Shown: piece after piece, positions 6,694 through 24,394 of the stretch | Layout: every line of letters starts with the position of its first letter | Numbering within the stretch: the first letter of the stretch is position 1 | The notes under the pieces: model-generated | Database searches by the model: none | Told to the model about the DNA's origin: nothing | The model's input: the letters and a program-made list of their open reading frames with translations, nothing else | NCBI GenBank assembly: GCA_005884985.1 | Contig: VAYK01000013.1 | Span: 1-31,773 of the forward strand | Reading direction: 5' to 3' | DNA from: Actinomycetota bacterium | GTDB taxonomy: Bacteria; Actinomycetota; Thermoleophilia; Solirubrobacterales; 70-9 | DNA length: 31,773 nt | Program-made: the position numbers and the translations under genes

Positions 6694-8965
<2,272 letters not shown>

Positions 8966-17721: not shown

Positions 17722-18981
17722 GTGAGCTCGCCCGCGTCCCCGGCCCAGACCATATGCCTGACCAAAGCCGCGCAGGTCGTGCGGCCGCCCGAGGACGGGC
17801 TGCCGTTCCTTCGGCACGATCGCGCCGCAGAGCTTCGTTTCGACCCGGTCCCTGTGACGATCGCGGGCGGCACGATCGCCGCCTTCGCGGAGACCGACGC
17901 AGAGCTTCGCATCGACGCCTCCGGCTGCGCGGTGGTGCCCGGCTTCGTCGACTGCCACACGCATCTTCCGTTCGCCGGATGGCGGGCCGGCGAGTACGAG
18001 CTCAAGGTCAGCGGCGCCAGCTACGAGGAGATCGCCCGGGCAGGGGGAGGAATAGCGGCGTCGGCCGCGGCCCTGGCCGAGGCCGGGGACGCCCAGGTCC
18101 TCGGCCAGGCCAAGTCGCTGGCGGACGAGATGCTGGCGTGGGGCACAACCGCCTTTGAGTGCAAAAGCGGCTACGGGCTGTCCGCCGAAGGTGAGCTCCG
18201 CGCCCTGCGGCTGGCCGATGAGCTCGATCGCTTGGTCAGTCAGACGACGGTCTCGACGGCGCTGCTCGCCCACGCGGTGCCGCCCGGCTACAGCGCGGAT
18301 GCCTGGATGGACGAGGTGGAGTCCCTGCTCCCGCGCGTCGCCGATGAGACGGATGCGACCGCCCTGGATATATACGTGGAGTCGATCGCGTTCTCCAACC
18401 AGCACCTCGCCCGCCTCGGCGAGCTCGCCGCCGACGCGGGCCTCGCGCTTCGCTGCCATGTCGAGCAGTTCACAGGTAACCGGTCGGTGCCGGTGGCGCT
18501 CGAGCACGGGGCGCGCTCGGTGGACCATCTGGCCTGCCTCCATCCGGACGACCTCGAACCGTTGGCGGCGAGCGAGTGCGCCGCGGTCCTGCTCCCGGGC
18601 GCCGAGTTCATGGCGGCCGAGCGCACCGCGCCGGCCCGTGAGCTCGCGAACGCCGGCGCGATCTGCGCCCTGGCGACGGACGCCAACCCCGGGACTTCGC
18701 CGCTGGTCTCGCTGCCGCTCGTGATCGGCCTCGCGGTGAGGCGGTACGGCTGGACGGCCGGCGAGGCGGTGCTCGCCGCTACGCACAACGCCGCCTGGGT
18801 GATCGGCTTGCACGAGCGCCTCGGGTCGCTCGAGATCGGAAAGAGCGCCGACCTCCTCCTCCTCGACGCCCCGATCGAGCACCTGCCCTACCGCCTCGGC
18901 CACAACCCGGTGCTGGCGGCCTTTCGGGCCGGCGAGCTGCTGTACGTGCGCGCCGACACTGCGGCCCGATTCGATGTCTGA
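17722..18981 (+). CDS. hutI: Imidazolonepropionase
   Basis: PGFVDCHTH, YEEIARAGGGI, ECKSGYGL, HVEQF, SVDHL, ATDANPGTSP; hut operon context. Confidence 0.93.
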   Translation: MSSPASPAQTICLTKAAQVVRPPEDGLPFLRHDRAAELRFDPVPVTIAGGTIAAFAETDAELRIDASGCAVVPGFVDCHTHLPFAGWRAGEYELKVSGASYEEIARAGGGIAASAAALAEAGDAQVLGQAKSLADEMLAWGTTAFECKSGYGLSAEGELRALRLADELDRLVSQTTVSTALLAHAVPPGYSADAWMDEVESLLPRVADETDATALDIYVESIAFSNQHLARLGELAADAGLALRCHVEQFTGNRSVPVALEHGARSVDHLACLHPDDLEPLAASECAAVLLPGAEFMAAERTAPARELANAGAICALATDANPGTSPLVSLPLVIGLAVRRYGWTAGEAVLAATHNAAWVIGLHERLGSLEIGKSADLLLLDAPIEHLPYRLGHNPVLAAFRAGELLYVRADTAARFDV

Positions 18982-20125
18982 GCCCGCGGGCCGCTACGAG
19001 ATCCCGGCGATGCCGAACGCCCACTCGCACGCCTTCCAGCGGGGCCTGCGGGCGATCGGCGAGCGACCGGCGCCGGCGACCGCGGCCAGCGACGACTTCT
19101 GGAGCTGGCGCGAGGAGATGTACCGGCTTGCGGGCTCGCTGGAGCTCGACTCGATGCACGATGCCGCCGTGGCGGCCTTCGCCGAGATGGGTCAGGCCGG
19201 CTACGGCGCCGTGGGCGAGTTCCACTATCTCCATCACCGGGCCGACGGGACGCCGTACGACGATCCGAACCAGATGGCGATCGCGGTCGCCGAGGGGGCG
19301 ATCGCCGAGGGCCTTCCGATCGTGCTCCTGCCTGCCGCCTACCACCGGGCCGGCTGGGACGGTGCCGACCTCGAGCCCGAAGGCGCGCAACGGCGGTTCT
19401 CCGACCCCGACGTCGAGACCTTCCTGGAGCGTGTCGATCGGTTGCGTGAATGGGCCGAGGGACGGGCCGAGGTGGAGGTGGGGGTGGCGGCCCACAGCGT
19501 CCGCGCCCTGCCCGCGAGCTGGCTCGAGCGGATCGCCGCCCACGCCGAGGAGCGGGGAATGGTGCGCCACGTCCACGCCTCGGAGCAGCGCCGCGAGGTC
19601 GAGGCCTGCCGCGCCGAGCATGGCTGCTCGCCGATCGCCCTGCTTCAACGGACCGGGTTCCTGGGCCCGCGGACGAGCGTTGTCCACGGGATTCACGTCG
19701 ACGCCAAGGACGTCGCCATGCTGGCGTCCACCCGGACGATCGTGATCTCGTGCCCGACCACGGAGGGAAACCTCGGCGACGGCCACTTTCCGGCGCTCGC
19801 CTATCGCGACGCCGGCGTCCGGATGGCGATCGGCAGCGACTCCCAGGTCAGGGTCGATCCCTTCGAGGAGGTCCGCGAGCTCGAGACGGGCGCCCGGCGC
19901 CAGGGGCAGACCCGCAGCGGGTTGCTCGCCGCCTACGGCGATCTCTGGGCCGAGCTCGCCGGCAACGGGGCGGCCAGCCTCGGCCTCGACCCCGATCGCC
20001 TCGACCGCGTCGAGCTCGACCTCACCCACCCGGCGCTTCGCGATGTGCCTCCCGAGGACCTCCCGCTGGCGATCGCCACCTGCGCTACCGCGAACGCGGT
20101 GGCCGGACGCGCGCCGACGGACTGA
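18974..20125 (+). CDS. hutF: Formimidoylglutamate deiminase
   Basis: MPNAHSHAFQRGL, DFWSWRE.MY, VGEFHYLHH, HSVRA, HVHASEQ, CPTTEGNLGDG, GSDS. Confidence 0.93.
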   Translation: MSEPAGRYEIPAMPNAHSHAFQRGLRAIGERPAPATAASDDFWSWREEMYRLAGSLELDSMHDAAVAAFAEMGQAGYGAVGEFHYLHHRADGTPYDDPNQMAIAVAEGAIAEGLPIVLLPAAYHRAGWDGADLEPEGAQRRFSDPDVETFLERVDRLREWAEGRAEVEVGVAAHSVRALPASWLERIAAHAEERGMVRHVHASEQRREVEACRAEHGCSPIALLQRTGFLGPRTSVVHGIHVDAKDVAMLASTRTIVISCPTTEGNLGDGHFPALAYRDAGVRMAIGSDSQVRVDPFEEVRELETGARRQGQTRSGLLAAYGDLWAELAGNGAASLGLDPDRLDRVELDLTHPALRDVPPEDLPLAIATCATANAVAGRAPTD

Positions 20126-20190: not shown

Positions 20191-20649
20191 ATGGCTCGGT
20201 ATCGGTCTGCGTTCGAAGGAAAGTCCTCACCGGAAAACGAAGGCGGAGGTCGACCCGGCGTCCTCGTCCGCTACCGCGTCTTCGGTGGTCCGGCGGCCGT
20301 CGACCAGCGCCTCACCGTGTTTGAGGACGGTGCCGTGCAGCTGGATGAGCGGCACCGCAGCCGCGACCCCACGTGGTTGCGGCTTGACGCGCCCGAGCTG
20401 GACAGGCTTCGCGCCGCGCTCGAGGAGCTGCCCGCGCGGCGCTGGTCGATCCTCGCCAGGCTGGGGCTGATGAGGGTCAAGAACCTGTTCGCCCTGTTCC
20501 CGAACCTGCGCATGCCCTCGGGCGCGCACTTCCAGCTCAAGCGGGGCCGCCGCGCGATCGTTGGGGGGACGGCCGAGGACCCGGACCTCGCGGCGCTCGT
20601 GGAGCTGCTCGACTCGCTCCGCGTGCAAGCCGTGCGCACGCATCCCCGT
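20191..20649 (+). CDS. Hypothetical protein of ~150 aa lacking a stop codon at its apparent end (formal ORF runs to 22413)
   Basis: Protein-like sequence (VLVRYRVFGGPAAVDQRLTVFEDGAVQL...LDRLRAALEEL) with typical codons and its own promoter. After ~20650 the frame is only the antisense shadow of the amidohydrolase. Confidence 0.65.
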
Positions 20650-21885
20650 TGGAGGATCGGAGAGCACCCGGTTGGCGAGCAGGCCGAAGGCCTCGATGCC
20701 GGTGGCAAGGTCGGGCTCGGGGGTGTCCTCCTGCTTGGCGTGGCTGATGCCGCTAGTGGAGGGACAGAAGACCATCGCAGCCGGCAGGACGCGGGCGACC
20801 TCGGCGGCGTCGTGGAGGGCGCCGCTGGTGAGCACGCGGTCCGAGCCCGCCGCTTCGCGGCAGGCCTCCCGCGCTGCGGCGATCAGACGCGAGTCGAACG
20901 GGATCGGCTCGATTCGCCACACCGGCTCCGATGCGTGCTCGCAGCCACGCTTCGCCGCCACCGCCTCGGCCGCGGCCAGGGCCTCGGCGAGCATCGATGC
21001 CAGCTCCTCGGCCTGGGGGTGGCGCAGGTCGATCAACAGCTCGGCCTCACCCGCCACCGCGGTCGGGATCCCGGGCCGCAGCGCGAGCGCACCGGTGGTC
21101 GCAACGCCGCCATGGCGACGGCCGATCTCCTCGACCCGCAGGGCGTACTCGGCCGCGGCGAGACCGGCGTCGCGTCGGCGGTCCATGGGCGTGGTGCCGG
21201 CGTGCGAGGCCTGGCCGCTGAAATGGAAGCGGTGACGCTCGACCCCGGCGCACCCGCTGACCGCGGCGGCCCGCAGGCCCTCCGCCTCGAGGACCGGCCC
21301 CTGCTCGATGTGGAGCTCGAGGTAGGCGGCGAGCCGCTCCTGGCGGCTGGCCGCCTCCGGCGCCCGATCCAGATCAACGCCGTTCTGCGCCAGCACGTCG
21401 ACGAGCATCCCGCCTTCTCGGTCGCGCAGGCCCCGCACCTCGGCGGGGTCGAGGGCCCCCGAGAAGGCGGAGCTGCCGAACAGGCTGCGGCCGAAGCGGG
21501 CGCCTTCCTCGTCGGCCCAGTCCACGAGCATCAGGGTCCGAGGCGGGGGGACGCCCGCCTCGGACCACGCCCTGAGCACGCCGAGCGCCGCCATCACCCC
21601 GAGCGCGCCGTCCAGCCAGCCACCCTCCGGCACCGAGTCGAGGTGCGACCCAAGCGCCAGCGCCGGCTCTTGCTCACCCTCCAAGGAGGCCCAGAGATTT
21701 CCGGCCGGGTCGGGCTCGGCTGTGAGGCCGATCTCGCCGAGCAGCTCGCCGAGCAGCGCCCGCGCCTCGCGCCACCCATCGCCCCAGCACAGTCGCTGCG
21801 CCCCGTCGGTCCCTCCGGTGCGGCGATCGAGCTCGCGCAGGTCGGCGATCGCCCGGCCGGAGTTGACCACGGGTCCGCCGCTCAT
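20227..21885 (-). CDS. Zn-dependent hydrolase, M20 hydantoinase/carbamoylase (allantoate amidohydrolase-like) family; family-like region ends ~20660, the rest is read-through
   Basis: LGSHLDSVPEGGWLDGALGV, WADEEGARFG, YLELHIEQGP, GQASHAGTTPM, SGALHDA, GISHAKQEDT. ATGA overlap with the upstream gene. Confidence 0.9.
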   Translation of the reverse strand: MSGGPVVNSGRAIADLRELDRRTGGTDGAQRLCWGDGWREARALLGELLGEIGLTAEPDPAGNLWASLEGEQEPALALGSHLDSVPEGGWLDGALGVMAALGVLRAWSEAGVPPPRTLMLVDWADEEGARFGRSLFGSSAFSGALDPAEVRGLRDREGGMLVDVLAQNGVDLDRAPEAASRQERLAAYLELHIEQGPVLEAEGLRAAAVSGCAGVERHRFHFSGQASHAGTTPMDRRRDAGLAAAEYALRVEEIGRRHGGVATTGALALRPGIPTAVAGEAELLIDLRHPQAEELASMLAEALAAAEAVAAKRGCEHASEPVWRIEPIPFDSRLIAAAREACREAAGSDRVLTSGALHDAAEVARVLPAAMVFCPSTSGISHAKQEDTPEPDLATGIEAFGLLANRVLSDPPTGMRAHGLHAERVEQLHERREVRVLGRPPNDRAAAPLELEVRARGHAQVREQGEQVLDPHQPQPGEDRPAPRGQLLERGAKPVQLGRVKPQPRGVAAAVPLIQLHGTVLKHGEALVDGRRTTEDAVADEDAGSTSAFVFR

Positions 21886-22778
21886 CCGCCCAGGCGCTGG
21901 CGGCGAAGCGCCTGCACCAAGCAGTGGGCGCCACCGCCCCCCAGCGTGAACATCGACAGGTCGAGCTCCTCGACGGTCAGCCCGCGGGCGCGCATCGACG
22001 CGTTCAGCGAGTCGGCTCCGGCAACCGAGAGCACGCGCTCGTCACCGAGCGAGATCGCGTTGGCGCCGAGCTGCAAGGCGTCCTCCGCGGACACCTCGAT
22101 CAGCTCGAAGCCGCGGTCCCGAAGCCAGGTCACGAAGCCGGCCGCCAGCACCTCGGTGCAGGCCGCGGCCAGCCGCTCCCCGAGGACCGCGAGCAGTACG
22201 TCGATGTGGACGAAGCGCTCGGGGATCGGCTCCACACGGACTTCCCACCCGTCCTCGGCCAGCCAGCCGGCGAGCTGCCGTGCCGCCGGCTCCTGGGTGC
22301 GATCCTCGCCGGCGCCGATCACAGCGCAGCCCGGCTCGAGGATCATCACGTCGCCCCCCTCCAGCGCCCCGGCCGTGATCATGCCGCGAATCGGGATCTC
22401 ACTGCCCTGGTAGAACCGGATCGCGGCCGCGTACTCGCCGCGCCGCCACCACTGGTGGAGCTGTGTGATCACCGCCCCGCCCGGGGTCATCGCGCTCGAG
22501 TCGCGAGCGAAGACCTGATATGGCAGCGCCGCGTCGGGCTCCAGGAAGTGGACCCGCACCCCTGCTTCCTGGTAGGCGGCGACCATCGCCGCGTGCTGGC
22601 GGCGCGCCAGGTCGCCGTCGAAGCGCCGCCCGCTCTCGAGGGTCGCGCGGGAGATCGCGCTGGTCGGCAGCCAGCGGAAGTTGTCGGGGCGGCAGACGAG
22701 CACGTCCCGCAGCCGTCCGTGCTCGGAGTCGACGCCCCAGGCGGGCTCAGGCTGTAGGGCCGCCGGGCCCTCGCTCAC
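21882..22778 (-). CDS. Amidinotransferase/pentein family (DDAH / arginine deiminase-like) hydrolase
   Basis: WGVDSEHGRLRDVLVCRP, QVFARDS, LEGGD, HIDV and GGGAHC catalytic elements. GTG 22778 overlaps the decarboxylase stop (GTGA). Confidence 0.9.
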   Translation of the reverse strand: MSEGPAALQPEPAWGVDSEHGRLRDVLVCRPDNFRWLPTSAISRATLESGRRFDGDLARRQHAAMVAAYQEAGVRVHFLEPDAALPYQVFARDSSAMTPGGAVITQLHQWWRRGEYAAAIRFYQGSEIPIRGMITAGALEGGDVMILEPGCAVIGAGEDRTQEPAARQLAGWLAEDGWEVRVEPIPERFVHIDVLLAVLGERLAAACTEVLAAGFVTWLRDRGFELIEVSAEDALQLGANAISLGDERVLSVAGADSLNASMRARGLTVEELDLSMFTLGGGGAHCLVQALRRQRLGG

Positions 22779-24229
22779 TCGCTGACCACCCGAATTGTGC
22801 GGAGGCTTCGGTCCACGGCTCCCCTCACCCAGCCGCCATGCTCGACCACCTCGTGGATGTAGTCGACGGTCTCCTGGGTCAAGCGCTCTCCGGGCAGCAC
22901 GTTCGGGATCCCCGGCGGGTAGGCGGCCAGGGACTCCGCGGCCACGCGCCCCACCGCCTCGTCGAACGGCACCACCTCCTGCGGCCCGAAGAAGGCCTCG
23001 CGCGGGGGCGCCTCGAGGCTCCCCCAGGGCGGCGGGGGCGTGAATGGCCGCTTCGGCAGCTGGGGCTCGGCCCCGAGGACCTCGACCGCCCGGCGCATGG
23101 CGGCGGCGAAGCGCCCTGCGCTCCGCGCCGCGTTCTCTCCCATCCCTAACGCCGCGACGACCACGTTCTCCGAGACCAGCTCGAGGTTGATGTCGTCCAG
23201 CTCGCGCATCAGCGAGGCGAGCCGCGTGCCGGTGCTGCCGGTAGCGCGGACGTCGATCGAGAGACGCAGCGGGTCCCAGCCATGGACCCCCGGGCGACCG
23301 ACCAGCCGCTCGTCGAGGACCTCCAGCCCTCCTATCCGCTGGACCTCGGCTCGGGCCCGCTCGACTCCCGCGAGAGTCTCGGCGAGCAGCTCCGTCCCGT
23401 GAACCGCCGCGTGTCGACGCGCGGCGTCCAGGGAGGCGGTGAGAAGGGCGCTCGGACTGGTCGATTCGGTCAAGGTCACGCAGCGATCGACCAGCAGCTT
23501 GTGCACCGAGGAGAGGACGAGGTCGGCATCGCACTCCAGCGCGCTCGCCGGCAGAAGCGGAGAGAAGCGCAGATGAGAGCCCCAGGCCTCGTCCACGACC
23601 AGCGGCAGGTTTCGGTCGTGGCAGACCTCAGCCAGACCGGTGACGTCGGCGACCGCGCCGAAGTAGGTGGGAGACACGGTCAGCGCCGCGACGGCATCCG
23701 GTGAGCGGTCGAGTGCCTCGGCGAGCGACTCCGGAGTCAGGCAATGGGCGACGCCGAGCTCGGCGTCGAGCTCGGGTGCGACGAAGCTCGGCTCCAAGCC
23801 GGCGAGGATGATCCCGTCGATGGTGCTCGAGTGGGCGTTGCGCTGAACAACGACGCGCTTGCCGGCGTGGCGAAGCGCGAGGCAGGTGCCGTGGTTGCCC
23901 TGTGAGGCGCCGTTGATCAGAAACCAGCTCCGCCGCGCGCCCCACGCCTTCGCGGCGAGGCGCTGAGCCTGCTGGAACGGGGAGTCCGCCCCGACGTCGA
24001 TGCCCTCGATCCCGGCGGGAACGTCACGGTCGAATGCCGCCTGGCCAAGCGCGTCGATCGCCGCCGGGTCCGCTCCGTGTCCCCCCTTGTGCCCGGGGAC
24101 GTGGAAGCGGCCGGGCCGGCGCTCCGCGTACTCGACGATCGCGTCCAGGTAGGGCGTCTGGTCCTGCTCGGTGCGCCCCTCCGTCGGGCGCCCGGCGCCC
24201 GTCGCCGATTGCAGAGCGTCCCCAGACAT
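22775..24229 (-). CDS. Orn/Lys/Arg decarboxylase (fold-type I PLP) with an apparent ~20-aa internal deletion
   Basis: RFHVPGHKGG, FLINGASQGN, QRNAHSS, SPTYFG, VDEAWGSH, SSVHK (PLP Lys), STSPS..L.ASLD, AYPPGIP. Confidence 0.9.
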   Translation of the reverse strand: MSGDALQSATGAGRPTEGRTEQDQTPYLDAIVEYAERRPGRFHVPGHKGGHGADPAAIDALGQAAFDRDVPAGIEGIDVGADSPFQQAQRLAAKAWGARRSWFLINGASQGNHGTCLALRHAGKRVVVQRNAHSSTIDGIILAGLEPSFVAPELDAELGVAHCLTPESLAEALDRSPDAVAALTVSPTYFGAVADVTGLAEVCHDRNLPLVVDEAWGSHLRFSPLLPASALECDADLVLSSVHKLLVDRCVTLTESTSPSALLTASLDAARRHAAVHGTELLAETLAGVERARAEVQRIGGLEVLDERLVGRPGVHGWDPLRLSIDVRATGSTGTRLASLMRELDDINLELVSENVVVAALGMGENAARSAGRFAAAMRRAVEVLGAEPQLPKRPFTPPPPWGSLEAPPREAFFGPQEVVPFDEAVGRVAAESLAAYPPGIPNVLPGERLTQETVDYIHEVVEHGGWVRGAVDRSLRTIRVVSE

Positions 24230-24310
24230 CCGCCGTGGACTCTAGTGCCGGGCCGGCCAGGGCCGTGGGATCAGACACCTAGGTCCCTGGTACCGTTCGA
24301 TCGTCCTCGT

Positions 24311-24394
24311 ATGGACGACGACCACCCTCCTCGAAGTACCAAGGACATAGGCGACGCCCGTAGTCCGGGCGAGCCTGCCCTGCGCCGGCCGTGA
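24311..24394 (+). other. Possible 27-aa upstream ORF coupled to the CNNM gene
   Basis: ATG 24311, [27 protein letters not shown]. Its TGA overlaps the GTG start at 24391 (GTGA). Confidence 0.3.

What the first reader, a model, noticed from the sequence alone, without database searches (positions are those of the whole stretch)
20660..24229. Coupled decarboxylase, pentein hydrolase and M20 carbamoylase: candidate non-canonical arginine-to-putrescine operon
Seen: three genes joined by 4-bp overlaps (GTGA at 22775-22778, ATGA at 21882-21885). Known: the standard routes use SpeA + AguA + AguB (nitrilase family) or ArcA + ArcB. Penteins convert guanidino groups to ureido groups, HyuC/AllC-like M20 enzymes remove N-carbamoyl groups, and fold-I decarboxylases act on Arg, Orn or Lys. 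Inferred: the three chemistries suffice for Arg > agmatine > N-carbamoylputrescine > putrescine, or for (methyl)Arg > citrulline > ornithine > putrescine. Either route would use a DDAH-like and an M20 enzyme in place of the usual families. This is the strongest candidate here for an undescribed pathway.
Basis: partly seen in the sequence, partly recalled or inferred. Interest (0 to 1): 0.68.

Follow-up and report, generated by a model that had tools for sequence, protein, structure and literature searches.

The report
Two-enzyme stand-in for agmatinase behind a decarboxylase
A soil actinobacterium couples a basic-amino-acid decarboxylase to a DDAH/arginine-deiminase-like enzyme and an M20 carbamoylase, and in sister species that pair swaps in place with an ordinary agmatinase-type gene, so it is probably an undescribed two-step way to strip the guanidino group from an arginine-derived amine.

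Summary
Three minus-strand genes are joined by GTGA and ATGA overlaps: an OKR_DC_1 decarboxylase, a DDAH/ADI-like pentein and an M20 hydantoinase/carbamoylase-family amidase.

This contig's copy has two lesions: a 63-bp in-frame deletion next to the PLP lysine, and an 89-bp deletion that removes the M20 stop. Conspecific contigs and Logan contigs of four soil metagenomes carry the intact form, so the lesions are private to this contig, as an artefact or a rare variant.

In 151 genomes of the same family:
- The pentein is in 73 and the M20 in 72, almost always adjacent. They are fused in one genome of another family.
- They follow the decarboxylase in 70 of 73.
- The decarboxylase is in 115.
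- In 8 genomes without the pair, the same slot holds an agmatinase-family ureohydrolase.
- The partner switches several times inside genera, with no matching change in the decarboxylase.

So the pair very probably replaces a ureohydrolase (about 0.8).

Substrate:
- Arg > agmatine > N-carbamoylputrescine > putrescine: about 0.45.
- A 4-guanidinobutyrate > GABA order: about 0.2. It fits better with the retained carboxylate-binding arginines in both enzymes.
- Arg > citrulline > ornithine: about 0.15.

Nothing has been assayed. First readers of this scan noted similar clusters in two other genomes.

The parts
22775..24229 (-). Fold-I Orn/Lys/Arg decarboxylase (ancestral short form, no REC wing). 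It is the first gene of the operon. This copy lacks 63 bp (21 aa) at 23493, directly after the PLP lysine (SSVHK).
   Evidence: PF01276 157 bits and PF03711 41 bits. Alignment with 12 relatives of 480-507 aa shows the gap. Conspecific genes are 505 aa. blastn against L054 gives the 63-bp gap.
21882..22778 (-). Pentein (guanidine-modifying enzyme) of the DDAH/ADI/ArgZ branch, 298 aa, intact. The GTG start overlaps the decarboxylase stop (GTGA).
   Evidence: PF19420 72 bits and PF02274 68 bits. No NCBIfam equivalog is reached (best DDAH-Mtb type, 80 bits against 300). Invariant or near-invariant R92-D93, R112, E140, D143, R160, H191, D193, C286.
20647..21885 (-). M20 hydantoinase/carbamoylase-family amidase. 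The ATG overlaps the pentein stop (ATGA). The homologous body ends about 20650.
   Evidence: TIGR01879 323 bits against 204. 226 bits to L-carbamoylase 3N5F. Relatives end 4-9 aa after ANRVL. The Asn equivalent to beta-alanine synthase N309 is Thr in all 14 pair M20s, while the His and Arg clamps are kept.
20227..20646 (-). Read-through tail of the M20 frame (about 140 aa of antisense translation). It is not part of the enzyme in conspecific strains.
   Evidence: The GC3 phase switches to a plus-strand frame at about 20660. M20 is 415 aa with a stop in conspecific contigs.
20647..20651 (.). Junction of an 89-bp deletion at a 5-bp CAACG microhomology. It removes both stops of the convergent M20 and small ORF.
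   Evidence: blastn of window against L054. Contigs of runs X1, X3 and X4 carry 84 extra letters here.
20191..20651 (+). Convergent small ORF (153 aa in conspecific L054, no Pfam family). It lies between hutF and the M20 and has lost its stop here. It is a neighbour, not shown to belong to the pathway.
   Evidence: Plus-strand GC3 signal. L054 ORF 3793-4254. No Pfam match. No tblastn match in relatives.
24239..24244 (-). Conserved TAGAGT (-10-like) box 9 nt before the decarboxylase ATG. It suggests a leaderless or very short-leader operon start. This is inference only.
   Evidence: Upstream regions of 13 relatives all keep (C)TAG(A/T)GT 9-15 nt before the start. The sigma-70 consensus scan found nothing.

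Best explanation
The operon encodes a basic-amino-acid decarboxylase followed by a two-enzyme module. The module removes a guanidino group hydrolytically in two steps. The pentein deiminates guanidino to ureido and releases NH3. The M20 amidase then decarbamoylates ureido to amine and releases CO2 and NH3. The module does the job that a single agmatinase-type ureohydrolase does in sister species.

My committed reading:
- The decarboxylase is an arginine decarboxylase.
- The pentein is a non-AguA agmatine deiminase.
- The M20 is a third, non-homologous kind of N-carbamoylputrescine amidohydrolase.
- Together they give Arg > agmatine > N-carbamoylputrescine > putrescine without urea.
- In some genera a clustered class-III aminotransferase and an aminoaldehyde dehydrogenase feed this on to GABA.

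Shown: gene families, coupling, co-inheritance, fusion, and in-place alternation with the ureohydrolase.
Inferred: every substrate.

Odds: about 0.8 that the pair replaces a ureohydrolase, and about 0.45 for the agmatine route specifically.
For: 1. Coupling. There are 4-bp overlaps in the window. The same order and strand occur in 42 fetched genomes or assemblies.
2. Co-inheritance. In 151 family genomes the pentein is in 73 and the M20 in 72, in the same genomes and adjacent. They form one 757-aa ORF in G031, a genome of another family. A 48%-identical pentein sits two genes from another M20 carbamoylase.
3. Displacement. The decarboxylase is in 115 of 151 genomes. In 8 pair-less genomes the gene right after it is an agmatinase-family ureohydrolase. 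It scores TIGR01230 189-217 against a cut-off of 174 in the two scanned with NCBIfam, with over-cut-off TIGR01230 matches at the same slot in all eight. The arginase model scores at most 109 against 227. There is a 4-bp overlap in G437, and the flanks are the same CNNM-HBD-thiolase genes.
4. The same decarboxylase serves both partners. The tree groups decarboxylases by genus. The partner switches at least 4-5 times on well-supported branches (g257, g305, g293). No alignment column separates the two partner classes.
5. The pentein keeps both guanidino-binding Asp (FARD, HID), unlike the putative citrullinase CtlX (PMC9007349).
6. No PF04371 agmatine deiminase was found in 5 of 5 good genomes. 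The triad M20 is the only TIGR01879 member there.
7. Context in g257, g297 and g264: a PotA-type polyamine ABC transporter, an APC permease, an aminobutyraldehyde-DH-like ALDH and a class-III aminotransferase flank the decarboxylase module.
Against: - Both enzymes keep residues that bind a substrate carboxylate in their solved relatives. The pentein keeps R112 and R160, which match PaDDAH R85/R132 by the alignment. The role of these two residues as carboxylate binders, and their equivalence to PaADI R185/R243, I take from my own knowledge of the published structures; I did not check it here. They are invariant in 27 family members. The M20 keeps the Arg and His equivalent to beta-alanine synthase R322 and H262 (PMC12169670, PMC10952681). 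Agmatine and N-carbamoylputrescine have no carboxylate.
- The residue that binds the alpha-amino group in DDAH and ADI is Tyr87 here.
- Distant family members sit in a true ADI cluster with OTC, so their substrate is arginine.
- TIGR01230 scores just above cut-off do not separate agmatinase from guanidinobutyrase.
- Li et al. 2021 (PMC8503589) report that actinobacterial short-form SpeA homologues are of unknown function and that M. smegmatis has no polyamines.
- Many pair carriers also hold an agmatinase-family gene elsewhere.
- No activity has been measured.
Confidence: 0.45

Rival explanations
1. Same gene set, other order: a guanidino-acid route to GABA. The decarboxylase makes agmatine. 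The clustered class-III aminotransferase and ALDH oxidise its amino end to 4-guanidinobutyrate. The pentein deiminates that to 4-ureidobutyrate, and the M20 releases GABA. In sister species the ureohydrolase would then be a guanidinobutyrase.
For: - It explains the retained carboxylate clamps in both enzymes and the loss of the alpha-amino-binding Asp/Asn (Tyr87).
- Bacterial M20 carbamoyl-beta-alanine amidohydrolases accept N-carbamoyl gamma-amino acids (PMC10952681).
- An ALDH lies directly upstream of the decarboxylase in g257 and g297, and near it in G443.
- An orthologous class-III aminotransferase sits at the cluster edge in 5 of 5 such genomes.
- Guanidinobutyrases belong to the agmatinase family, which would fit the near-cut-off TIGR01230 scores (family membership is from my own knowledge).
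Against: - In most genera, the window's included, no ALDH or aminotransferase lies near the triad. The tightly overlapped genes would then encode steps 1, 4 and 5 of a pathway.
- Decarboxylase plus ureohydrolase with a 4-bp overlap reads most simply as SpeA-SpeB.
- The decarboxylase-adjacent ureohydrolases score higher on the E. coli-type agmatinase model (273-290 bits) than the unlinked paralogues do (119-240).
- No 4-guanidinobutyrate deiminase is known. A literature search for 4-ureidobutyrate found only metabolomics and unrelated papers.
Confidence: 0.22
2. A split arginine dihydrolase feeding an ornithine decarboxylase: Arg > citrulline (pentein) > ornithine (M20 as citrullinase) > putrescine (decarboxylase). 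In sister species the ureohydrolase would act as an arginase.
For: - The carboxylate clamps fit amino-acid substrates.
- Distant family members are in ADI clusters with OTC and an ArcE/YfcC-like carrier.
- Another relative abuts a class-III aminotransferase, like Rv2323c-rocD in M. tuberculosis (PMC4569260).
- Short-form ODCs exist (PMC8503589).
Against: - The swapped-in ureohydrolase passes the agmatinase model and is far below the arginase model (at most 109 bits against 227).
- The same decarboxylase serves both partners.
- The M20 would have to cleave a delta-ureido group five atoms from the carboxylate. No M20 citrullinase is known. The known or proposed ones are Ctu (nitrilase fold) and CtlX (pentein) (PMC9007349).
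Confidence: 0.15
3. The pair degrades some other guanidino compound (for example a methylarginine, homoarginine or an N-amidino acid). It merely hitch-hikes on the decarboxylase promoter, with no metabolic link between the three genes.
For: - The pair occurs without the decarboxylase in G142.
- In G031 it is 858 kb from the decarboxylase, next to an NCS1 permease.
- In G508 it is divergent and unlinked.
- Decarboxylase homologues have unrelated contexts elsewhere: after a release-factor gene in family f3, and alone in g15.
Against: - 70 of 73 carriers place the pair right after the decarboxylase, with overlapping stop and start in the window and in the loci where I read the junctions.
- The slot is otherwise filled by a ureohydrolase that also removes a guanidino group.
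- The swap recurs within genera.
Confidence: 0.12
4. The M20 is the missing last enzyme of the adjoining histidine-utilisation pathway (an N-formyl- or N-carbamoyl-glutamate amidohydrolase). It is only incidentally next to the pentein.
For: - A hutH-hutU-hutI-hutF operon converges on the M20 in the window and in several relatives.
- No FGase (PF05013) was found in 5 hut-carrying genomes.
- The M20 scores 301 bits on the ErtE N-carbamyl-glutamate model, against a cut-off of 520.
Against: - G002, G022, G003 and G018 have no hutU yet keep the triad.
- The closest relatives have an MslH-like gene there instead of hut.
- Relatives' hut operons carry their own deformylase-family gene.
- The M20 co-occurs with the pentein, not with hut.
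Confidence: 0.03

Closest known systems
Agmatine deiminase routes AguA + AguB, or AguA + AguY (Li et al. 2025, PMC12283126)
   Same: The chemistry proposed is the same: guanidino > ureido (+NH3), then ureido > amine (+CO2 +NH3). Both are two-gene modules, linked to an arginine decarboxylase in some genomes and not in others. Both have a patchy distribution and alternate with agmatinase.
   Different: Neither enzyme is homologous to the known ones. AguA is PF04371, and here the deiminase is a DDAH/ADI-like pentein. AguB is nitrilase-fold and AguY is amidase-signature, and here the amidase is an M20 metallo-amidase. Both enzymes here keep carboxylate clamps that agmatine-route substrates do not need. 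No activity has been shown.
SpeA-SpeB (arginine decarboxylase + agmatinase)
   Same: Sister species carry decarboxylase + agmatinase-family gene at the identical locus with a 4-bp overlap. The pair occupies that slot.
   Different: It is two hydrolases instead of one, with ammonia and CO2 as by-products instead of urea. The decarboxylase is the short AAT-fold form from a clade whose function Li et al. 2021 (PMC8503589) call unknown in Actinobacteria.
Arginine deiminase, DDAH and arginine dihydrolase ArgZ (penteins acting on arginine-type amino acids)
   Same: It shares the Pfam families, the catalytic Cys-His-Glu/Asp set, FxRD and HxD guanidino binders, and both carboxylate-binding Arg. Distant relatives lie in ADI clusters.
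   Different: It reaches no equivalog model (at most 80 bits against 300-490). It is about 300 aa like DDAH but has an ADI-like FxRD motif. The alpha-amino binder is replaced by Tyr. It is obligately paired with an M20, which none of these are.
Hydantoinase-process L-carbamoylases, beta-alanine synthase, AllC (M20, TIGR01879)
   Same: It passes the family model. The metal-ligand motifs match (GSHLDS, DG, DEEG, ELHIEQG, SH). The dimer-domain His and the Arg clamp are kept. The reaction type is decarbamoylation.
   Different: The carboxylate-anchoring Asn (beta-alanine synthase N309) is Thr throughout the pair clade. It is partnered with a pentein rather than a hydantoinase or dihydropyrimidinase. 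It is below every equivalog cut-off.
Guanidinobutyrase pathway (GbuA, with KauB aldehyde dehydrogenase) of arginine catabolism
   Same: An agmatinase-family ureohydrolase, an aminoaldehyde dehydrogenase and a transaminase lie in one catabolic context ending in GABA.
   Different: The known route uses a ureohydrolase and yields urea. A deiminase-plus-carbamoylase version via 4-ureidobutyrate has not been described, to my knowledge and in the literature search.

Membership tests
Pentein / guanidine-modifying enzyme superfamily, DDAH-ADI branch | Pfam PF19420 or PF02274 above the gathering score | tested here: met
   72.3 and 68 bits against 23 and 22.8
Pentein / guanidine-modifying enzyme superfamily, DDAH-ADI branch | Catalytic Cys near the C terminus, catalytic His, acidic partner, and two guanidino-binding Asp (FxRD, HxD) | tested here: met
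   C286 (GGGGAHC), H191, E140/D143, R92-D93 and D193 are invariant or at least 90% conserved in 27 relatives and align to PaDDAH C249, H162, E114, D66. The criterion is from PMC9007349.
Named pentein equivalogs (DDAH, ADI ArcA, arginine dihydrolase ArgZ, CtlX) | NCBIfam equivalog score above the curated cut-off | tested here: not met
   Best is 79.8 bits against 300 (DDAH, Mtb type). ArcA 51 against 489, Arg_dihydro 41 against 450, CtlX 17 against 334.
Agmatine deiminase AguA (PF04371 PAD_porph) | Homology to PF04371 | tested here: not met
   No PF04371 hit for the pentein. The family was not found in 5 of 5 genus genomes of at least 94% completeness. If it deiminates agmatine it is an analogue, not a member.
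M20 hydantoinase/carbamoylase family amidase (TIGR01879) | Family model above cut-off and di-metal ligand motifs | tested here: met
   322.7 bits against 204. His, Asp, Glu, His, His motifs align with L-carbamoylase 3N5F.
M20 hydantoinase/carbamoylase family amidase (TIGR01879) | Substrate-carboxylate anchors His262, Asn309, Arg322 (S. kluyveri beta-alanine synthase numbering) | tested here: inconclusive
   His and Arg are kept. Asn is Thr in all 14 pair or triad M20s, including the fusion. Residue roles are from PMC12169670.
N-carbamoylputrescine amidohydrolase AguB (nitrilase) or AguY (amidase signature) | Homology to PF00795 or PF01425 | tested here: not met
   The M20 hits only PF01546 and PF04389. 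It would be a third, non-homologous type.
Orn/Lys/Arg decarboxylase, short 'ancestral' AAT-fold form (SpeA/YaaO-like) | PF01276 major domain, PF03711 C-terminal domain, PLP lysine, about 490-505 aa, no REC wing | tested here: met
   157 and 41 bits. SSVHK is present. Intact orthologues are 480-518 aa. The window's copy lacks 21 aa after the lysine.
Arginine decarboxylase activity (SpeA function) | Preference for L-arginine | not testable with these tools
   It is inferred only from coupling to an agmatinase-family gene. HMM and PDB scores do not separate ADC, ODC and LDC.
Agmatinase SpeB (for the gene that replaces the pair in sister species) | TIGR01230 above cut-off and arginase model below cut-off | tested here: met
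   189 and 216.6 bits against 174.3. PRK02190 273-290 against 302. TIGR01229 at most 109 against 227.6. This does not exclude guanidinobutyrase.

The most novel reading that the evidence does not exclude
The pair is a guanidino-acid deiminase plus ureido-acid amidohydrolase. It converts 4-guanidinobutyrate through 4-ureidobutyrate to GABA. That would be a catabolic reaction and intermediate not described for any organism. The retained carboxylate clamps in both enzymes would then make sense, and the neighbouring ureohydrolase in sister species would be a guanidinobutyrase.
Probability: 0.22. Interest if true: 0.75.

Novelty: new variant of a known kind. Interest (0 to 1): 0.62.

Why it matters
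Putrescine formation from agmatine is currently described by three routes. All deiminase routes use AguA (PMC12283126, July 2025). A DDAH/ADI-like deiminase with an M20 amidase would add a fully non-homologous fourth solution. It would also give a function to a pentein subfamily and an M20 clade that automatic annotation calls 'dimethylargininase' and 'allantoate amidohydrolase'.

It may also bear on the short-form SpeA homologues of Actinobacteria, whose role Li et al. 2021 left open.

The natural experiment makes the question directly testable with a few recombinant proteins and an E. coli speB mutant: the same decarboxylase, at the same locus, carries either a ureohydrolase or the pair, and the partner swaps repeatedly within genera.

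Physiologically, the pair yields ammonia directly instead of urea. That could matter for nitrogen economy in soil bacteria.

Tried and rejected
I got wider named-genome context from the genome search and the look-up of encoding contigs instead.
- The long 'fusion' hits of the representative search were mostly miscalled high-GC ORFs or unrelated N-terminal domains (desaturase, TetR) and gave no lead.
- Several 44-50% identical penteins lie on contigs too short to show neighbours.
- Rfam found nothing in or near the operon. The sigma-70 and terminator scans found nothing. I saw no ARG-box-like palindrome in the aligned upstream regions, by eye only.
- The M20-for-Hut idea was tested and set aside.
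- Genome inventories gave no clean pattern. The arginase family is in 3 of 5 carriers, weak spermidine-synthase hits are in 2 of 5, and an AR-fold decarboxylase (probably lysA) is in 5 of 5.
- Agmatinase-family genes are not anticorrelated with the pair genome-wide, only at the slot.
- The clustered class-III aminotransferase could not be typed. It scores about 190 bits on both the GABA-AT and the putrescine-AT models, far below both cut-offs. No flavin amine oxidase lies near the clusters.
- I ran no structure or complex prediction. I make no binding claim, and the tools return no coordinates for pocket analysis.

Full report
**What is there.** The window is a 70% G+C contig (C22) of a 72.6%-complete, 228-contig MAG. 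Close protein relatives are named Solirubrobacterales or Actinomycetota MAGs. The stretch is held by soil metagenomes of 14 studies.

On the minus strand lie three ORFs:
- 22775-24229, 484 aa.
- 21882-22778, 298 aa, GTG start.
- 21885 downwards.

The overlaps GTGA (22778-22775) and ATGA (21885-21882) are read directly from the sequence.

- OKR_DC_1 major and C-terminal domains.
- DDAH_eukar and ADI.
- M20 of the hydantoinase/carbamoylase family, TIGR01879 323 bits against 204.

None of the three reaches any NCBIfam equivalog cut-off.

**Two lesions, private to this contig.** Relatives' M20 genes stop 4-9 codons after ANRVL. The window's frame runs on for about 145 codons to 20227, across a stretch whose GC3 phase belongs to a plus-strand gene. 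The decarboxylase lacks 21 residues, the invariant GSLTQS... segment, directly after the PLP lysine.

Two assemblies of the same species (pentein 99-100% identical) carry a 505-aa decarboxylase, a 298-aa pentein and a 415-aa M20 with a stop. A separate convergent small ORF follows, and then hutF, hutI, hutU and hutH.

blastn against one of them (L054, 99.3-99.4% identical) shows what the window lacks:
- 63 bp at 23493.
- 89 bp at 20647-20651, at a 5-bp CAACG microhomology. The 89 bp hold the end and stop of the M20, a 74-bp spacer and the stop of the small ORF.

This also explains the companion note that two convergent genes both lack a stop.

Logan contigs of four soil metagenomes from four studies carry the extra 84 and 62 letters at these sites. 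None bridges either site in the window's form. I therefore treat both lesions as an assembly artefact or a rare variant. The operon is intact in the species.

**The unit of inheritance is the pentein-M20 pair.** In a 151-genome sample of the same family:
- The pentein is found in 73 genomes (26 of 58 genera). The M20 is found in 72, in the same genomes and adjacent.
- The decarboxylase is found in 115 (40 of 58 genera).
- By the printed coordinates, the decarboxylase lies directly upstream of the pentein in 70 of the 73 carriers.
- The exceptions are G142 (no decarboxylase found), G508 (M20 divergent, decarboxylase on another contig) and G473 (fragmented).

In 401 genomes drawn across the phylum, the pentein subfamily appears in only 9, mostly this family.

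Outside the family:
- G031 carries pentein and M20 as one 757-aa reading frame with no stop between them. It sits next to an NCS1 permease, 858 kb from its decarboxylase homologue.
- A metagenomic pentein of 48% identity lies two genes from a standard-type M20 carbamoylase, with an AsnC-type regulator between.
- A MAG with a 51%-identical pentein has the full triad in a different neighbourhood.

Co-inheritance, fusion and recurrence together say that the two enzymes act in consecutive steps.

**The key result: an in-place swap with a ureohydrolase.** In 8 pair-less genomes (G437, G438, G443, G482, G488, G509, G515, G563), the gene immediately after the same decarboxylase is an arginase-fold ureohydrolase.

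I scanned two of these with NCBIfam:
- They pass the agmatinase equivalog, with 189 and 217 bits against 174.
- They come close to the E. coli-type agmatinase model, with 273 and 290 bits against 302.
- They lie far below the arginase model.

In G437 the two genes overlap by 4 bp. The flanks are the same as for the triad: CNNM, hydroxyacyl-CoA dehydrogenase and thiolase.

Genera g257, g305 and g293 contain both forms. In a maximum-likelihood tree of 30 decarboxylases the sequences group by genus. The partner label needs at least 4-5 changes on well-supported branches, for example G563 (ureohydrolase) as sister to G484 (pair) at 100/98. No alignment column separates decarboxylases with the two partners.

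One species of the window's own genus (G565) has the decarboxylase followed at once by the MslH-like gene, with no pair.

The simplest reading is that the pair and the ureohydrolase are interchangeable solutions to one task downstream of an unchanged decarboxylase. A ureohydrolase removes a guanidino group as urea. A pentein followed by a carbamoylase would remove it as ammonia, CO2 and ammonia.

**Which substrate.** Decarboxylase plus agmatinase-family enzyme is the classical SpeA-SpeB pair. On that reading the pair would convert agmatine through N-carbamoylputrescine to putrescine.

Supporting points:
- The pentein keeps both guanidino-binding aspartates. The putative citrullinase CtlX lacks them (PMC9007349).
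- No AguA-type gene was found in five good genomes.
- The triad M20 is the only member of its family in those genomes.

There is real counter-evidence:
- By alignment to P. aeruginosa DDAH, the pentein's R112 and R160 match R85 and R132. From my knowledge of the DDAH and ADI structures, those residues hold the substrate's alpha-carboxylate. Both are invariant in all 27 aligned family members.
- The residue that binds the alpha-amino group in DDAH and ADI is Tyr87 here.
- The M20 keeps the Arg and His that anchor the substrate carboxylate in beta-alanine synthase, R322 and H262. Only N309 is changed, to Thr, in all 14 pair M20s.
- Agmatine and N-carbamoylputrescine carry no carboxylate.

Two alternatives respect these residues.

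1. The guanidinobutyrate order. Agmatine is first oxidised at its amino end to 4-guanidinobutyrate. That is deiminated to 4-ureidobutyrate and decarbamoylated to GABA.
   - For: in g257, g297 and g264 the module sits in a larger cluster. It holds an aminobutyraldehyde-dehydrogenase-like ALDH directly upstream, a PotA-type polyamine ABC transporter, an APC permease and an orthologous class-III aminotransferase at the edge.
   - For: bacterial M20 carbamoyl-beta-alanine amidohydrolases accept gamma-ureido acids (PMC10952681).
   - Neutral: the same gene set equally serves putrescine > 4-aminobutanal > GABA after route 1.
   - Against: most genera, the window's included, have no ALDH or aminotransferase nearby.
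2. The citrulline route. Arg > citrulline > ornithine > putrescine.
   - For: distant family members sit in a true ADI cluster with OTC (TIGR00658 399 bits against 281) and an ArcE/YfcC-like carrier.
   - Against: the swapped-in ureohydrolase would have to be an arginase, which the models do not support.

Odds as I weigh them:

| Reading | Probability |
|---|---|
| Pair replaces a ureohydrolase | about 0.8 |
| Agmatine route | about 0.45 |
| Guanidinobutyrate order | about 0.22 |
| Citrulline route | about 0.15 |
| No metabolic link to the decarboxylase | about 0.12 |

**The hut neighbourhood.** The M20 converges on a hutH-hutU-hutI-hutF operon in the window, which raised the idea that it is the missing last Hut enzyme. 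Evidence against this:
- Four relatives have no hutU yet keep the triad.
- The closest relatives have the MslH-like gene directly beside the M20.
- Other relatives' hut operons carry their own deformylase-family gene.

I set this reading aside at about 0.03.

**Comparison with what is known.** Li et al. 2025 (PMC12283126) list three routes from agmatine to putrescine. Both deiminase routes use AguA. The amidohydrolase is AguB (nitrilase fold) or the newly found AguY (amidase signature). No DDAH-like deiminase or M20 amidohydrolase is mentioned.

Li et al. 2021 (PMC8503589) state that short-form SpeA homologues of Actinobacteria are of unknown function. The coupling of this family's orthologue to an agmatinase-family gene is a hint towards arginine decarboxylase, but no more than that.

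Decarboxylase homologues in the neighbouring family f3 (48-53% identical) sit right after a class-I release-factor gene. Those of other actinobacteria (36-38% identical) have yet other contexts.

The finding is therefore a new variant of a known kind: known reaction types and known protein families in a combination and role not described.

First readers of this scan noted look-alike clusters in two other genomes. One of those notes, an ALDH-decarboxylase-pentein-M20 operon, led me to look for the ALDH and aminotransferase, which I then found in g257 and g297.

**Verdict.**
- The pair is a real, conserved, probably functional module.
- Its substrates remain to be assayed.
- The copy in this window looks damaged, but the damage is not seen in any other assembly of the species.

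Noticed in passing
window 24311-24350 (+): A conserved 13-codon upstream ORF (MDDDHPPRSTKDI-stop in the window, MSDDDQPPSTRPH-stop in G004) lies about 40 nt before the CNNM/CorC-type transporter gene. That gene diverges from the decarboxylase. The DNA around the uORF is conserved across several genera, and Rfam has no match. It may be a proline-containing leader peptide controlling the transporter.
   Followed up: partly
window 20191-20651 (+); L054:3793-4254 (-): A 153-aa ORF with strong coding GC3 and no Pfam family follows hutF in this species only. It has no tblastn match in any fetched relative. In relatives the hut operon instead holds a deformylase-family gene, so this ORF might be an unrecognised last Hut enzyme. 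That is pure conjecture.
   Followed up: partly
L021:3059-3634 (+), L026:4639-5214 (+): Relatives' hut operons (hutH-hutU-X-hutF-like-hutI-like) carry a 191-aa polypeptide-deformylase-family gene (PF01327, 149-158 bits) between hutU and the formimidoylglutamate-deiminase-like gene. It is a candidate N-formylglutamate deformylase replacing HutG. FGase (PF05013) was not found in five hut-carrying genomes.
   Followed up: partly
window 17722-20125 (+) versus L021-L026: The window's hutI and hutF are only 36-52% identical to the genes at the corresponding place in relatives and stand in the opposite order, while hutH and hutU are 76-89% identical. The hut operon seems to exist in two versions within one genus. 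It is absent from the closest relatives.
   Followed up: no
L048:8914-9891, L049:8649-9638, L050:6172-7152: In three genomes of the neighbouring family, the decarboxylase homologue (48-53% identical) directly follows, and overlaps, a class-I peptide-chain release-factor gene (PCRF + RF-1 domains). This recalls the link of Bacillus YaaO to EF-P modification and hints at a translation-related role for that clade.
   Followed up: no
L051:8609-10414 (-) with decarboxylase 7093-8652 (-): In a 5.6-Mb actinobacterium (G214), an amidase-signature gene (PF01425, 397 bits) overlaps the start of the 37%-identical decarboxylase homologue. AguY, the recently described alternative N-carbamoylputrescine amidohydrolase, is of that family.
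   Followed up: no
G498:C11:21301-24889 and G498:C9:554390-557997: One genome of the family carries two complete decarboxylase-pentein-M20 triads on different contigs.
   Followed up: no
L029:9266-11374 (+): A 26%-identical pentein is read in one frame with a class-III aminotransferase (702-aa ORF). This resembles the Rv2323c-rocD neighbourhood of M. tuberculosis. I did not check whether it is a true fusion or a missed stop.
   Followed up: no
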